From assembly GCF_009914755.1 (NCBI RefSeq), contig NC_060943.1: a DNA stretch of 64,000 bases; one strand, 5' to 3'. Positions 32,811 to 64,000 of this stretch are shown here, piece after piece. The stretch comes from the human T2T-CHM13v2.0 reference genome, Homo sapiens. The position numbers were made by a program, and so were the translations under genes. The notes below the pieces were generated by a model, which made no database searches, had not been told where the DNA came from, and saw only the letters and a program-made list of their open reading frames with translations. Each line of letters opens with the position of its first letter. The first letter of the stretch is position 1.

Positions 32811-54616
<21,806 letters not shown>

Positions 54617-54677
54617 GTTGGATGTCATCCCCCGACCCCACCCTGTTTTCCACCAGAGTTCTGACACTGTGACTCTG

Positions 54678-54683
54678 TATAAA
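54678..54683 (+). terminator. RUVBL2: RUVBL2 variant polyadenylation signal TATAAA
   Basis: TGTATAAA about 60 nt after the stop, with a GT-rich TGTGTATGTGTGGTT tract downstream. Confidence 0.7.
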
Positions 54684-54769
54684 ATGGTTGGGAAGCTGCA
54701 CCCACCCTGTGTATGTGTGGTTGCCCTGAGCCCACAGAAAGACACCGCCAGAGTGCGGATTGAGAAGCC

Positions 54770-54775
54770 TTTATT
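54770..54775 (-). terminator. LHB: LHB polyadenylation signal
   Basis: TTTATT on +, i.e. AATAAA on -. Confidence 0.95.
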
Positions 54776-54841
54776 GTGGGAGGATCGGGGTGTCAGGGCT
54801 CCAGGAGTCGGGATGGACTTGGAAGGCTGCGGGGAGGGTCT

Positions 54842-55854
<1,013 letters not shown>

Positions 55855-55886
55855 CCTTGGTGCATCCCCTGCCTCGTGTATCTGGC

Positions 55887-55990
55887 TTTATACCTCGGGG
55901 TTGTGGGGGCGGCAAGGCCACCAGGAGGTGATAGGATGCTGGGGTAACCTGGACACTAATCCCCCCGGGGGCGAGAGGTGCACATGGCCA
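55887..55990 (-). promoter_or_regulatory. LHB: LHB gonadotrope promoter: TATA plus SF-1/EGR1/PITX1 composite
   Basis: TATAAA 55887-55892; EGR CGCCCCCAC 55903-55911; SF-1 TGGCCTTG 55913-55920; PITX TAATCC 55957-55962; distal EGR 55965-55973; distal SF-1-like 55983-55990. Confidence 0.9.
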
Positions 55991-56487
55991 GGGAGGCGCA
56001 GGAGTGGCTCAGCAGAGTGCCCCAGCCCTCTCCCCTCAGTGGTCTAGCGCCAGAGGTGAGGCAGAGACCACGGTGAAGTGACCTCAGAGACTCAGTTGTC
56101 GAGTGCTAGGGACTAGTCGAGGCTGGAAGCACAGGGAGTAGGGTGTAGGAAGGCCTGCCTCTGCCAATTGTGGGGTCTTGGGAGCCAGGAGGAGGCCATG
56201 ACCCGAGAAAGGTGCTGGACTGAAGCCTCAACCCTCCACTTGAGGCTTTCCTGCACCACAGTCCAACCTAACAGGAGGGGCGCTGCTTCGGACTTAGCTT
56301 CTGCCCAGTGAGAGAGGGTCTCCCCGTGACTGTGCTGCCAGGGAAGCCACTTGACCCAGATGCCCCCAAGGAGGGATTAAGCCCGAGCCCCACCTCTCCC
56401 TTAGGGACCTCCGCCCACCCTACCCTCAAGCCAGGATGCCCGGAGCGTCCCCGGAAGTGGGTGTGGTTCAGGTGATTTAACTCATTA

Positions 56488-56493
56488 TTTAAT
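56488..56493 (-). terminator. Probable polyadenylation signal ATTAAA of the SAXO3-like gene
   Basis: First AWTAAA on the minus strand after the stop at 56741 (~250 nt downstream). Confidence 0.65.
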
Positions 56494-56740
56494 ACGCCCG
56501 CAGGGTGCGTGTCTTGCCCCCGGGGCCACAGCCTGCAAGGACATTATCTGGACTTAGTCCCCTCTCCGTGATGCCGCAGCTGAGTGGGTGTCTGGGCTAG
56601 TCCCGCCCCCACGTTGCCAATAGACGTAATGAGTGCGACTCAGGCTGGGTCCGGAACCCTTCCTAGTGAGCGGAGGTCCCGAGCTCCGCTCGGCAGCGCG
56701 GCCCTGGGGGCGGGTCTGGGGTGGGGCTGGCCCTGACGGC

Positions 56741-59378
<2,638 letters not shown>

Positions 59379-60180
59379 TCAATCAAGGGCCTGCAGGCAC
59401 CTGGATGGATGGAATGAGAAAGAGACCCAGAGACAGGGACCCCAAGAGGGGTACAAAGAAACACAAGGAGGGGGAATGGAGACTCAAAGATAGGAGGGTG
59501 GAAAGGGAAGGAGAAGTTCAGTATTTCAGAGACCCAGGGGGTGGGGGAGAGAGAAACCCAAAAAGAGGGACAGGGACCTGGAGGTGTCAGAGATCCAGAC
59601 AGAGAGACAGAGACCCCTGCGCTGCACCTAGCAACTCAGGACATCCATGAGAAACACCCCCCTTTCTTCCAGGGCCCAGATGCTCCTGGCTGCTTCCTCC
59701 CTCTACCAGGCCTGCCCACCTCAGGGTAACGATTTCCATACATCCCCGGGGCTCCCCGACCCTCCCTGCATGCACGTGCTGAAGTAATCAGCACTAGCAT
59801 TGGCTGTCCTGCCTGCCTTTGATTGGCTTGAAAAGTTCCACCTGGGTAGGCGGGGTGTGGAAACAGGGAGGCACCCACAGAGAAGTGCACCGGACCATAG
59901 CGAAAAACATGGGCTTTGATGAGTGAGAAAGAAATACAAGAGAGGAGAGAGACAGGGAGGAAGACACAGACCACGCTGGAAACGGAGCTATTAGTACTCA
60001 CCCAGAGGCTAGAGCCACCGGAAGTTAGAGACAGAGAGAAAGGCGGCAAAAAAGAGCAAAATCAGAGATGGTAACAAGGAGATGTAGAAACGGAGGCAGC
60101 CACACCCCTCCCTGCCGAGGGGCCTGGTCTGTACAGATTGGTGGAGGGGGTGCCTATGTCCTTTGCTCAAAGCTGGACCT

Positions 60181-60343
60181 GAGAGAGAGAGAGGGGGAGA
60201 GAAAGTGAGAGAGAGAGAGTGTGTGTGTGTGTCTGTGTCTGTGTGTTGGCAACACCTGTGGGGAGATGGGTAATAGGTAAAGGGCTATTGTGAAGTCCTG
60301 TGGTCTGTCCCAGACAGAGAGAAAGAGAGAGAGAGAGAGAGAG

Positions 60344-60374
<31 letters not shown>

Positions 60375-60570
60375 CTGTCTGTGTGTTGGCAACACATGTG
60401 GGGAGATGGGTAATAGGTGAAGGGCTATTGTGAAGTCCTGTGGACCAGAGAGAGAGAGAGAGAGTGAGTGTGTGTGTGTCTGTATGTCTGTGTGTTGGCA
60501 ACACATGTAGGGAGATGGGTAATAGGGGTCATAGGTGAAGGGCTACTGTGAACTCCTGTGGTCTGTCCCT
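60181..60570. repeat. Triplicated ~110-140-bp unit containing (GA)n(GT)n microsatellites
   Basis: Core TGTGTTGGCAACAC…GGGAGATGGGTAATAGG…GGCTATTGTGAAGTCCTGTGG occurs three times. Confidence 0.9.
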
Positions 60571-60609
60571 GGCTTCCCTTGTCATTTCTTCACCATATAG
60601 AGCTTTTGG

Positions 60610-60900
60610 TCACCGGGCACGATGACTCACTCCTGTAATCCCAGCACTTTGAGAGGCAGAGGCGGGCAGATAACTTGAGGTTAGGAGTTTGAAACCAGCC
60701 TGGCCAACATGGCAAAACCCTGTCTCTATCGAAAAATATAAAAAGTAGCCAGGCATGGTGGCGCACACCTGTAATCCCAACTAAGGCAGGAGAATCACTT
60801 GAACTCAGGAGGTGAAGGTGGCAGTGAGCTGAGATCATGCCACTGCACTCCAGCCTAGGGGACAGAGCAAGACTCCATCTCAAAAAAAAAAAAAAAAAAT
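60610..60900 (+). mobile_element. Alu with TSD ATAGAGCTTTTGGTC-like
   Basis: Alu body and A tail; AGCTTTTGGTC on both sides. Confidence 0.85.
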
Positions 60901-61096
60901 AGCTTTTGGTCTAGGCCTCTGCCTCCTCAACCCTCATTATCTCATCCCACGAGCCCATTCTTCAGACAAGGAAACCTGAGGCTGCCTTCTGCAGCCAGGC
61001 CCACAATCCCACTTACTGTTCCTCCCTGAATCATGCTTCTGGGGCCCTTCTGTTGGATTTTGCTGACCCTACTCAAGGGCTCTCAATGACGAATAA

Positions 61097-61463
<367 letters not shown>

Positions 61464-61667
61464 ATCAAGCTGGAAAATTTTAAGGTCTGTTTCTTTCCCA
61501 ATGTAGAGTAAAGTTGCGATGTCATCCCCCGACCCCACACTGTTTTCTACCAGAGTTCTCATACTGTGACTCTGTATAAAATGGTTTGGAAGCTGGACCC
61601 ATCCTGTGTGTGTGTGGTTGCCCTGAGCCCACAGAAAGACACCGCCAGAGTGCGGATTGAGAAGCCT

Positions 61668-62753
61668 TTATTGTGGGAGGATCGGGGTGTCCGAGGGCCC
61701 CGGGAGTCGGGATGGACTTGGAAGGCTCGGGGGAGGGGCCTTTGAGGAAGAGGAGTCCTGGAAGCGGGGGTCATCACAGGTCAAGGGGTGGTCCTTGGGA
61801 CCCCCGCAGTCAGTGGTGCTGCGGCGGCAGAGTGCACATTGACAGCTGAGAGCCACGGCGTAGGAGACCACGGGGTTCACGCCGCGCGGGCAGCCAGGGA
61901 GCCGGATGGACTCGAAGCGCACATCGCGGTAGTTGCACACCACCTGAGGCAGGGCCGGCAGGACCCCCTGCAGCACGCGGGTCTGGAAGCCGTGTGAGTG
62001 GGAGAATGAGCATGTGCCTGGGGCCAGCGCCTCAGCTGAGCTCCCCAGCTGCCCCCACAGGTCTCAGACTCAGGGGTCCAGGAAGCCCTCTGTTCCTGCC
62101 CTCCCACACCCCATTCCGCAGCCCCTGACCAGAGAGGCAGACCACCCTTCCTCCCCCGCTGCCTCTGTGGGTCTGGCCCTGAGGTGGCAGCACCTGCCCT
62201 GGCCCCGGGCAGCTCACCATGGTGGGGCAGTAGCCGGCACAGATGGTGGTGTTGACGGTGATGCACACGGGGCAGCCCTCCTTCTCCACAGCCAGGGTGG
62301 CATTGATGGGGCGGCACCGTGGCCGAAGCGGCTCCTTGGATGCCCATGTCCCGCCCATGCTCAGCAGCAGCAACAGCAGCAGCCCCTGGGACAAGGACAC
62401 TGCTTCACCCGGGTCTGAGACCGCAGCCCCGAGTCCTGGCCTTCCCATCCCGCGTGGTACACCACCCACAAAGACCCAGAGACCCTTCCCGGCATCTCCT
62501 ATTCAGGACCCACCACCCGGACACCTGCCTTTCAGAGCCCACCCCACAGCCCAGAGGACCTGAGATACCCCAACATTTCAGATCCCCACCCTCAGGAAAT
62601 GCCCCACCTGAAGCTTACTGGGGGTCACGCTCCTCCAGAAAGAGGCCTCCTTACACAGCTCACACGGGTCTGACCCCTTCTCATGCCAGTGATTGCCTGG
62701 AAGGAGGTGGAAGGTGCCCAGGGGCCCTGCAGTCTTACCTGGAACATCTCCAT
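61668..62753 (-). CDS. CGB3: Chorionic gonadotropin beta subunit, 165 aa (Asp117 type)
   Basis: Exons 62753-62739, 62385-62218, 61982-61668 (498 nt); MEMFQ…[16 protein letters not shown]…[32 protein letters not shown]; stop overlaps AATAAA (61667-61672). CGB3 inferred from being the LHB-proximal copy. Confidence 0.93.
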
Positions 62754-63117
62754 CCTTGGTGCGTCCCCTGCCTCGTGTACCTGGCTTTATACCTCGGGGT
62801 TGTGGGGGCGGCAAGGCCACCAGGAGGTTGTAGGATGCTGGGGTGAGCTCGACACTAACCCCTTGGGGGGCAAGAGGTAGACAAGGCCAGGGGGGCTCAG
62901 GAGTGGCTCAGCGGAGCGCCCCAGCCCTCTCCCCTCAGTGGTCCAGCGCCAAGGGTGAGGCGGAGACCACGGTGAAGTGACCTCAGAGACTCAGTCGTCG
63001 AGTGCTAGGGACTAGTCGAGGCTGGAGGCACAGGGAGTAGGGTGTAGGAAGGCCTGCCTCTGCCTATGGTGGGGTCTTGGAAGCCAGGAGGAGGCCGTGA
63101 CCCGAGCAAAGTGCTGG

Positions 63118-63479
63118 ACTGAAGCCTCAACCCTCCTCTACTTGAGGCTTTCCTGCACCACAGTCCAACCTCCCAGGAGGGGCGCGGCTTCGGACTTAGC
63201 TTCTGCCCAATGAGAGAGGGCCTCCCCGTGACTGTGCTGCCAGGGAAGCCACTTGACCCTGGTGCCCCCCAACGAGGGATTCAGCCCGAGCCCCACCTCT
63301 CCCTTAGGGACCTCCGCCCACCCTACCCTCAAGCCAGGATGCCCGGAGCGGTCCCCGGAAATGCGTGTGCTTCAGGTGATTTAACTGATTATTGAATAGG
63401 CCCGCAGGGGGTGTGTCCTGCCCGCGGGGCCGCAGCCTCGGAGGACATTATCTGGACTTAGTCCCTTCCCCGCGATGCC
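63118..63479 (-). promoter_or_regulatory. CGB3: TATA-less placental CGB promoter (TSS ~63118, ~365-nt 5'UTR)
   Basis: TCCAGCACTTTGCTCGGG start-site sequence; GC-rich AP-2/Sp1-like tracts; AATAATCA at 63386-63393. Confidence 0.75.
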
Positions 63480-64000
63480 ATCAAGCTGGACAATTTTAAG
63501 GTCTGTTTCTTTCCCAGTGTAGGGTATAGGTTGGCACAGGGAAGAGGGCTAGAAACCTGACTTGAGCTCCCCACCCAGGGCTGAACTCTCCAGCATCCTG
63601 ATCACTTCTCATTGAACCTTGCTTATACTCCCCGTGTGATCGGTAGCTCTTTATCTCAAAACAGAATATTCTAAGCCAACCCCTGCCCGCTCTCACCAAG
63701 TAAGATTTCTCATTTGAACCCCAGCTCCCAGATACTTAAAGGCCTTCTGTAGACCATGTCCTCAAGGTCCCCTGGCCATCTGCTTGCATGTTCCAGTTTC
63801 TCTCCTCCCCCATGCACATCGTGAAATGTGCCCTCCCACTCCCCAGGATGAGCAAGGTGGTGTCCTCTGTGACTGAGCAGTCAGCAACTTAACACCAAAG
63901 GTCACCAATGATCAAATCCATGAGAGTTGATCCGAGGAGTTATGTATTAGGGCTACGAAAGAGTAAACACTCAGTAAATAGTGGCTATTATTATCATCAT

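What the first reader, a model, noticed from the sequence alone, without database searches (positions are those of the whole stretch)
61461..63533. Possible birth scar of CGB: LHB copy bracketed by a ~56-bp direct repeat with microhomologies
Seen: GCCATCAAGCTGGAAAATTTTAAGGTCTGTTTCTTTCCCAATGTAGAGTA-AAGTTG (61461-61516) recurs at 63477-63533 with 4 substitutions and 1 indel. The two copies exactly flank the duplicate of 54616-56575. The left junction shares AGTTG with the donor start. The right junction shares GCC with the donor end and the adjacent Alu 5' end. A third partial copy (61150-61165) is the Alu TSD. Inference: a two-step replication template switch (FoSTeS/MMBIR-like) copied ~1.96 kb of LHB ~5 kb away and duplicated the landing site, rather than Alu-Alu recombination. 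I do not know whether this has been published.
Basis: partly seen in the sequence, partly recalled or inferred. Interest (0 to 1): 0.78.

Follow-up and report, generated by a model that had tools for sequence, protein, structure and literature searches.

The report
Duplication scar flanking the CGB3 gene
The human CGB3 pregnancy-hormone gene sits as a 1.96 kb copied segment between two copies of a ~53-base stretch of the landing site, a real rearrangement scar, though it is not yet clear that it marks the very first CGB gene.

Summary
A 53-56 bp direct repeat (61461-61516 and 63477-63533; 4 substitutions and 1 indel) brackets a 1.96 kb LHB-type segment containing CGB3. The repeat is not dispersed: 7 genome matches, all inside the LHB/CGB cluster.

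New evidence:
- Next to CGB7 lies a 7 kb paralogue of LHB-SAXO3-spacer-Alu-56mer. There the 56-mer is single and runs straight on towards NTF4, so it is an internal "empty site".
- The Alu at 61163-61463 is shared by both units. It therefore predates the event, and the GCC microhomology at the right junction is the Alu's own 5' end.
- The right junction is shared by 5 of 6 CGB genes. The left junction is unique in the genome.
- The two landing-site breakpoints lie 53 bp apart, which argues for one coupled event (template switch or equivalent). Alu-Alu recombination, retrocopying and transposition are excluded.

The "birth of CGB" reading stays open (about 40%). The cluster also carries a separate ~10.5 kb tandem-unit junction, gene conversion blurs which gene was copied, and Hallast 2008 treats CGB(3) as a recent copy. 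New World monkey, tarsier and chimpanzee loci would decide it. I found no description of this repeat in the papers I could search; Hallast 2005 could not be read.

The parts
54616..56575 (-). Donor-type segment. It runs from the last base of the RUVBL2 stop codon through the LHB gene to 711 bp upstream of LHB exon 1, and is homologous to the CGB3 insert.
   Evidence: blastn 54616-56575 vs 61512-63479, 93.0% over 1969 columns. RUVBL2 coding ends at 54616 (annotation; sequence).
61146..61162 (.). Left target-site duplication of the Alu.
   Evidence: 15 of 17 identical to 61465-61481. The same arrangement is seen in the CGB7-side paralogue.
61163..61463 (-). Full-length Alu, with its T-run at the left and its 5' end (ggcc) at 61460-61463. 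It is older than the rearrangement.
   Evidence: About 100 Alu-type matches in the window. A paralogous Alu sits at the same site with the same flanks at 99124-99424 of the extended map. Alu vs Alu' non-CpG divergence is 9.5-10.6%.
61464..61516 (.). Repeat copy A: one base plus the right Alu target-site duplication plus 35 bp of spacer.
   Evidence: It forms part of a 67 bp run (61447-61513) identical to the CGB7-side copy.
61512..61517 (.). Junction J1 (landing site to donor base 54616). AG/AGTTG is shared with the donor, and there is one extra C at 61517.
   Evidence: Alignment of LHB, CGB3 and five R' copies. J1 is unique in the genome: 1 of 9 matches covers the full query.
61517..63476 (-). 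The 1,960 bp insert: CGB3 with both introns, 134 bp of 3' flank and 361 bp upstream of its transcription start.
   Evidence: and the annotation. No terminal inverted repeats (best 15 of 40) and no A/T run longer than 4 at the ends.
63477..63479 (.). Junction J2 microhomology GCC, shared by the donor end (56573-56575) and the Alu 5' end (61461-61463).
   Evidence: The identical junction motif occurs at 5 CGB genes: CGB3, 2, 1, 5 and 8.
63480..63534 (.). Repeat copy B, continuous on its right with the NTF4-downstream-type spacer Y.
63535..64000 (.). Start of spacer Y leading to pseudogene NTF6A. It is a paralogue of the sequence downstream of NTF4.
   Evidence: 63477-65725 matches 99422-101609 of the extended map at 86.1%. 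Tree of six Y copies.

Best explanation
A single, old, non-homologous duplicative insertion. A 1.96 kb LHB-family gene segment was copied into the spacer between SAXO3 and the NTF4-type sequence, immediately beside an Alu that was already there. The segment runs from the RUVBL2 stop codon to about 710 bp upstream of LHB exon 1.

The copying process left the landing site at ...AAAG(G)TTGG and entered the donor at AGTTGG (junction J1). It left the donor at ...GATGCC and re-entered the landing site 53 bp behind the point where it had left, at the Alu's terminal GCC (junction J2). Those 53 bp are therefore present twice. This is what a two-switch replicative template switch (FoSTeS/MMBIR type) produces.

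Later, unequal recombination between CGB genes carried J2, copy B and the spacer to four more CGB genes. Gene conversion then made the insert CGB-type.

Shown: the anatomy, the empty-site paralogue, the Alu being older than the event, and the junction copy numbers. Inferred: that there was one event, that it was replicative, and its age.
For: - Repeat and insert boundaries are confirmed.
- The 56-mer is specific to the cluster: 7 genome matches, all there.
- The CGB7-side unit holds spacer'-Alu'-56mer-Y uninterrupted. 54638-60193 matches 92943-98447 at 89.4% and 60526-61513 matches 98465-99474 at 86.1% (junction alignments). The ancestral site therefore had one 56-mer.
- Copy B begins GCC-A-TCAAG, exactly like the Alu end plus its flank in both units, so the template already carried the Alu.
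- Microhomology is 3 bp at J2 and 2 bp perfect, or 5 bp with a slip, at J1. By chance, P(>=3 bp) = 0.05.
- No homology beyond that, no Alu at the donor ends, introns retained, no poly-A, no terminal inverted repeats.
- The two landing-site breakpoints lie 53 bp apart within a ~4.9 kb spacer. That is about 1% if they arose independently (my arithmetic from the coordinates).
- Age: A differs from B at 4 of 53 positions, whereas the five B copies differ from one another at only 0-2. J2 is shared by 5 CGB genes.
Against: - The end product is identical to a tandem duplication of 54616-61516 followed by a deletion, or to capture of a fragment at a staggered break. No feature seen here proves replication.
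- J1 is not a clean microhomology. Against the uninterrupted copies it needs a lost G and an extra C.
- The two ends of the insert resemble different relatives. The J1-proximal ~30 bp are LHB-like and unlike all five R' copies. The J2-proximal 138 bp are 99.3% identical to CGB7 but 87.4% to LHB. Either gene conversion or a hybrid origin of the two junctions could explain this.
- Copy A is identical to the CGB7-side copy over 67 bp, while its neighbours differ at 11% of non-CpG sites (P about 4e-4). No simple history predicts this.
Confidence: 0.6

Rival explanations
1. Two independent events. First, a tandem duplication of 54616-61516 (LHB, SAXO3, spacer, Alu and 56-mer) created J1. Later, a ~4.9 kb deletion in the second copy removed SAXO3', the spacer and the Alu, ending at the Alu's 5' end, and created J2.
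For: The CGB7 unit shows that a gene copy followed by SAXO3'-spacer'-Alu'-56mer-Y can exist and persist. It looks like an undeleted intermediate. Both junctions are of simple end-joining type.
Against: The deletion would have to end within 56 bp of the duplication's end by chance, about 1% over a ~4.9 kb spacer. The CGB7 unit cannot be that intermediate. It starts at 54470 with R' and an extra Alu, not at J1, and J1 is unique in the genome.
Confidence: 0.15
2. Non-replicative capture. Two nicks about 53 nt apart on opposite strands opened the spacer. A free or synthesis-derived 1.96 kb LHB-type fragment was ligated in by microhomology end joining, and filling in the overhangs duplicated the 53 bp.
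For: It gives the same end product: short microhomologies and one extra base at J1, which is typical of end joining. One breakpoint lies exactly at the Alu/flank boundary.
Against: There is no independent sign of such a staggered break. The donor lies only 5-10 kb away in cis, as expected for template switching. The sequence cannot separate the two.
Confidence: 0.15
3. The bracket is a composite. J2 arose as a deletion in a CGB7-type unit and J1 arose separately at the end of the LHB unit. Unequal crossing-over between gene bodies then brought them onto one gene, so the 'direct repeat' is a by-product.
For: The J2-proximal sequence is CGB7-like (99.3%) and the J1-proximal sequence is LHB-like. 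Five R'-bearing units share J2 and an Alu insertion that CGB3 lacks. Hallast 2008 (PMC2478647, section 6) infers recent reshuffling of the CGB-to-CGB2 segment.
Against: The 53 bp proximity of the two breakpoints would again be a coincidence. It needs more events. Gene conversion, well documented in this cluster (PMC2478647 section 6, PMC8522476 passage), explains the mosaic similarity without it.
Confidence: 0.1

Closest known systems
FoSTeS / MMBIR template-switch rearrangements (Hastings et al. 2009, PMC2621351; seen only as a search listing and abstract start)
   Same: Non-recurrent junctions with 2-5 bp microhomology. Two junctions formed together. The template is a nearby sequence in cis. 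Duplication of sequence behind the re-entry point, and a small untemplated or slipped base at a junction.
   Different: Those cases are recent, disease-linked copy-number changes with known parental alleles. This one is an ancient, fixed event inferred from paralogues, later overwritten by gene conversion, so replication cannot be shown.
Alu-mediated non-allelic homologous recombination model for LHB/CGB cluster expansion (Hallast et al. 2008, PMC2478647, sections 5-6 read)
   Same: Same locus. An Alu sits at a breakpoint. Later spread of the J2-bearing unit probably did use homologous misalignment.
   Different: At J1 and J2 there is no Alu on the donor side and no chimeric Alu. The Alu is intact with both target-site duplications and contributes only its last 3 bases.
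Target-site duplications of transposable elements and L1-mediated retrocopies
   Same: An inserted segment bracketed by a direct repeat of the landing site.
   Different: The repeat is 53 bp, not 2-20 bp. The insert keeps its introns and promoter and has no poly-A and no terminal inverted repeats.

Membership tests
Microhomology-mediated template-switch duplication (FoSTeS/MMBIR type) | Short (about 2-5+ bp) microhomology at each breakpoint and no long homology | tested here: met
   J2 has GCC (3 bp). J1 has AG perfect, or GTTGG with a one-base slip. Flanks are otherwise unrelated. By chance, P(>=3 bp) = 0.05.
Microhomology-mediated template-switch duplication (FoSTeS/MMBIR type) | Two or more junctions created in one event, with return close to the point of departure | tested here: inconclusive
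   The landing-site breakpoints are 53 bp apart in a ~4.9 kb spacer, which favours coupling. No intermediate or parental allele can be examined.
Microhomology-mediated template-switch duplication (FoSTeS/MMBIR type) | Template lies nearby in cis | tested here: met
   The LHB donor is 4.9 kb away. The only other LHB-type sequences in the genome are in the same cluster.
Microhomology-mediated template-switch duplication (FoSTeS/MMBIR type) | Replicative origin (fork stalling or break-induced replication) | not testable with these tools
   The sequence end product is the same as for end-joining capture.
Alu-Alu non-allelic homologous recombination | Alu elements at both breakpoints and a chimeric Alu at the junction | tested here: not met
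   The donor ends 54616 and 56575 have no Alu. The Alu at 61163-61463 is full length with both target-site duplications.
L1-mediated retrocopy | Intron loss, 3' poly-A and a 7-20 bp target-site duplication | tested here: not met
   Both introns and the promoter are retained (annotation). The longest A/T run at the ends is 4, and the repeat is 53 bp.
DNA transposon insertion | Terminal inverted repeats and a short fixed-length target-site duplication | tested here: not met
   The best match between the two ends is 15 of 40 in inverted orientation.
Simple tandem duplication | Copy directly abuts the source segment | tested here: not met
   4.9 kb (56576-61460: SAXO3, spacer, two Alus) lies between source and copy and is not duplicated here.

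The most novel reading that the evidence does not exclude
J1 and J2 are the physical record of the event that created the first chorionic gonadotropin beta gene in an anthropoid ancestor. One template-switch event copied LHB into the SAXO3-NTF4 spacer just after an Alu had landed there.

On this reading the ~10.5 kb tandem unit (J3) and the CGB7 unit came later. The 'empty site' beside CGB7 arose when copying or recombination slipped between the two 53 bp repeats.

Points in its favour:
- A local Alu clock places J3 at only about 0.5-0.65 of the age of two Alus shared by both units. That is probably later than the split from New World monkeys, which already have CGB (PMC2478647, PMC2954307 passages).
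- Copy B keeps the base seen in both left target-site duplications, where A and the CGB7-side copy share a different base.
Probability: 0.4. Interest if true: 0.65.

Novelty: new member of a known kind. Interest (0 to 1): 0.5.

Why it matters
CGB is a textbook case of a new gene arising by duplication, and it underlies primate pregnancy recognition. The base-level breakpoints and the mechanism of its origin are not described in the literature I could search.

This scar gives exact junctions (J1, J2), a dated landmark (the Alu) and an internal empty site. Together they turn 'how and when did CGB arise' into a direct test on public primate assemblies.

The scar also fixes the upstream limit of LHB-derived promoter DNA at -361 of CGB3. 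The mapped trophoblast and cAMP elements (-311 to -202, figure legend in PMC2599907) all lie inside that limit.

If the event proves secondary, it is still a clean ancient example of a coupled microhomology insertion in a medically relevant gene cluster.

Tried and rejected
Mechanisms and histories considered:
- **Dispersed repeat:** rejected. There are 7 matches, all in the cluster.
- **Alu-Alu recombination, retrocopy, DNA transposon, simple tandem duplication:** rejected on structure.
- **Both junctions as deletions in an array of full-length units:** rejected. All five R'-bearing units carry an Alu insertion at 54638-54650 that CGB3 lacks.
- **Ordering the events from the 56-mer itself:** A equals the CGB7-side copy, and B differs at 3 shared sites. 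The 67 bp identity is anomalous under every history. It needs gene conversion or constraint, and that removes the signal.
- **Ordering from similarity of the insert ends:** the left end is LHB-like and the right end CGB7-like. Gene conversion confounds this.
- **Alu clock:** 77 local Alus were compared with a majority consensus used only inside scripts. The result is suggestive, but subfamily names could not be assigned, and the absolute ages rest on recalled Alu and primate dates.

Material I could not reach:
- Hallast et al. 2005 (PMC1310641 / doi 10.1101/gr.4270505) is not held. It may describe the duplication boundaries.
- The supplementary PDFs of PMC2478647 were not opened.
- No primate genome other than the window's own could be reached with these tools.

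Literature searches for a prior description:
- No paper holds chorionic gonadotropin + LHB + microhomology.
- The only paper with LHB + CGB + direct repeat + duplication is on an unrelated topic.
- None of the 20 listed papers mentions LHB or CGB.

Full report
**Coordinates.** All positions are window positions. Positions above 64000 belong to an extended map made by adding the next 48 kb of the same contig. A window position equals the contig C19 position minus 51,956,000.

**1. The observation**

Reading the sequence and blastn within the window confirm the finding.
- 61461-61513 matches 63477-63529 at 92.5% over 53 bp (E 3.6e-16).
- 61512-63479 matches 54616-56575 at 93.0% over 1969 columns. 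The insert is 61517-63476 (1,960 bp). It holds CGB3 with both introns, 134 bp of 3' flank and 361 bp upstream of the transcription start.
- AGTTG is shared at the left junction, and GCC at the right junction.
- The third partial copy is the left target-site duplication of the Alu: 61146-61162 matches 61465-61481 at 15 of 17.
- The Alu (61163-61463) lies in minus orientation. Its 5' end, ggcc, is at 61460-61463, so the GCC of copy A belongs to the Alu.
- The 56-mer is not a dispersed repeat. A 91-nt query across copy B has 7 matches in the whole genome, all in this cluster: copy A, one upstream of each of CGB3, 2, 1, 5 and 8, and one between CGB7 and NTF4.

**2. What surrounds it**

Mapping the whole cluster shows two long paralogous units.
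- **U1** runs R (54469-54650, the end of RUVBL2), LHB, SAXO3, spacer X, Alu, copy A, J1, CGB3, J2, copy B, spacer Y, NTF6A, up to 67618.
- **U2** runs R' (92435-92615), an extra Alu, CGB7, SAXO3', X', Alu', 56-mer, Y'' and then the real NTF4.
- 54638-60193 matches 92943-98447 at 89.4% over 5,598 columns, and 60526-61513 matches 98465-99474 at 86.1%. A global alignment gives 5884 of 6472 aligned positions identical, 90.9%.
- In U2 the 56-mer is single. It lies after the same Alu, at the same site with the same flanks, and is continuous with Y''.

Three conclusions follow:
- The ancestral site held one 56-mer.
- The Alu predates the separation of U1 and U2.
- Copy B reads GCC-A-TCAAG, exactly like the Alu end plus flank. 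Both left target-site duplications have C rather than A before TCAAG. Copy B was therefore copied from a template that already carried the Alu.

**3. The junctions**

- **J2** (donor ...GATGCC joined to ATCAAG...) occurs identically at five genes.
- **J1** is unique in the genome. Of 9 matches to a 107-nt query across it, only the query's own site covers the full length.
- Against the uninterrupted copies, which read ...AAAGGTTGG..., J1 shares AG with the donor perfectly, or GTTGG with a one-base slip, and carries an extra C at 61517.
- For a blunt random join, P(>=3 bp microhomology) is 0.05 and P(>=5 bp) is 0.005.
- **J3**, a third junction type, joins the NTF-side end (equivalent to 102918) to R' at 54469. 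It occurs five times, always followed by an Alu insertion at 54638-54650 that LHB and CGB3 lack. J3 defines a ~10.5 kb tandem unit.

**4. Mechanism**

Several mechanisms are excluded:
- Alu-Alu recombination: there is no Alu at either donor end, and the one Alu present is intact.
- Retrocopying: the introns are retained, there is no poly-A, and the repeat is 53 bp.
- Transposition: the ends match at best 15 of 40 in inverted orientation.
- Two deletions in an array of R'-bearing units: CGB3 lacks their Alu insertion.

The landing-site breakpoints of J1 and J2 lie 53 bp apart within a ~4.9 kb spacer. Independent events would do that about 1% of the time (my arithmetic). I therefore favour one coupled event: departure from the spacer, a 1.96 kb copy of an LHB-family gene, and re-entry 53 bp behind the point of departure. 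That is the product of a two-switch template switch. A fragment captured at a staggered break gives the same product. A tandem duplication followed by a deletion is possible but needs the coincidence. After the event, unequal crossing-over between the J2-bearing gene and a CGB7-type gene would yield the R'-Alu-CGB-J2-B-Y units in one step.

**5. Is it the birth of CGB?**

*Points against, or blurring the answer:*
- J3 is a separate large duplication, and U2's empty site is most simply explained if J3 came first.
- The insert is now CGB-type: 97.3-98.3% identical to CGB7/5/8 and 93.4% to LHB. The 138 bp next to J2 are 99.3% identical to CGB7 and 87.4% to LHB.
- Hallast et al. 2008 (sections 5-6 read) regard the human CGB-to-CGB2 12.7 kb as a human-specific inverted duplication. 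In chimpanzee, 'region A' is followed by CGB1B.
- The Y copies next to CGB3, CGB1 and CGB2 are 97.0-97.5% identical to one another.

*Points in favour:*
- The ~30 bp next to J1 are LHB-like at 4 sites where all five R' copies differ.
- A differs from B at 4 of 53 positions, while the B copies differ from one another at 0-2.
- B keeps the C seen in both left target-site duplications, where A and the U2 copy share an A.
- The Alu clock. Two Alus shared by U1 and U2 had about 3.8-4.2% non-CpG divergence from a local 77-Alu consensus before the units separated, and 4.3-4.7% per lineage afterwards. J3 therefore falls at about 0.5-0.65 of their age. On recalled Alu ages this is younger than the split from New World monkeys, which already have CGB (PMC2478647 and PMC2954307 passages).
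- The U1/U2 baseline divergence is consistent across separate segments. Non-CpG divergence is 10.5-11.2% in X, 11-14.5% in 56576-57113, 8.4-9.3% in Y and 6-10% in R.

*An anomaly under every history:* copy A and the U2 copy are identical over 67 bp (61447-61513), while their neighbours differ at 11% of non-CpG sites (P about 4e-4). This implies gene conversion or constraint, and it removes the 56-mer as a clock.

I put the birth reading at about 40%.

**6. Comparison and novelty**

The event works like a FoSTeS/MMBIR rearrangement. The defining features testable here are met: microhomology, no long homology, and a donor in cis. Coupling of the two junctions is supported but not proven, and replication cannot be tested.

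I found no prior description in the searchable library. Hallast et al. 2005, the main structural paper, is not held and may cover the boundaries. I rate this a new member of a known kind, of moderate interest, with a sharp test available on public primate assemblies.

Noticed in passing
L010/L011, extended-map 95054-97551 (C19:52051054-52053551), between CGB7 and NTF4: A paralogue of SAXO3 lies upstream of CGB7. When its exons are mapped from SAXO3 it has an in-frame stop, a 1 bp longer exon 3, a 15 bp longer exon 1 and a 46 bp shorter last exon, so it is a pseudogene.
   Followed up: partly
window 61447-61513 vs extended-map 99408-99474: A 67 bp run is perfectly identical between the LHB-side and CGB7-side units, where flanking Alu and spacer differ at 11% of non-CpG sites (P about 4e-4). 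It is the only identical run of 45 bp or more in the 59300-61516 spacer. Either gene conversion up to the homology edge or a constrained element.
   Followed up: partly
window 57114-59291 (SAXO3 introns and exons) vs the CGB7-side unit: Non-CpG divergence here is only 3.3-5.3%, against 10.5-14.5% on both sides. This is a mosaic pattern that suggests gene conversion or selection across SAXO3 and its pseudogene copy.
   Followed up: no
window 54469-54650; copies at extended-map 67643, 72603(-), 78749(-), 85835, 92435: The end of RUVBL2 (part of the last intron plus the last 26 coding bases and the stop codon) is present in five extra copies. Each is joined on one side to NTF-type sequence (junction J3) and is followed by the same Alu insertion. 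This defines a ~10.5 kb tandem unit of the cluster.
   Followed up: partly
window 60181-60569: An internal tandem repeat of about 125-135 bp units in the LHB-CGB3 spacer (self-matches at 77-84%). The stretch is largely absent from the CGB7-side unit. It is probably the simple-repeat stretch where Hallast 2008 report a 128 bp human/chimpanzee indel.
   Followed up: no
window 63116-63476: Only 361 bp of LHB-derived DNA lie upstream of the CGB3 transcription start before J2. The mapped cAMP and trophoblast elements (-311 to -202, legend in PMC2599907) all fall inside it.
   Followed up: no
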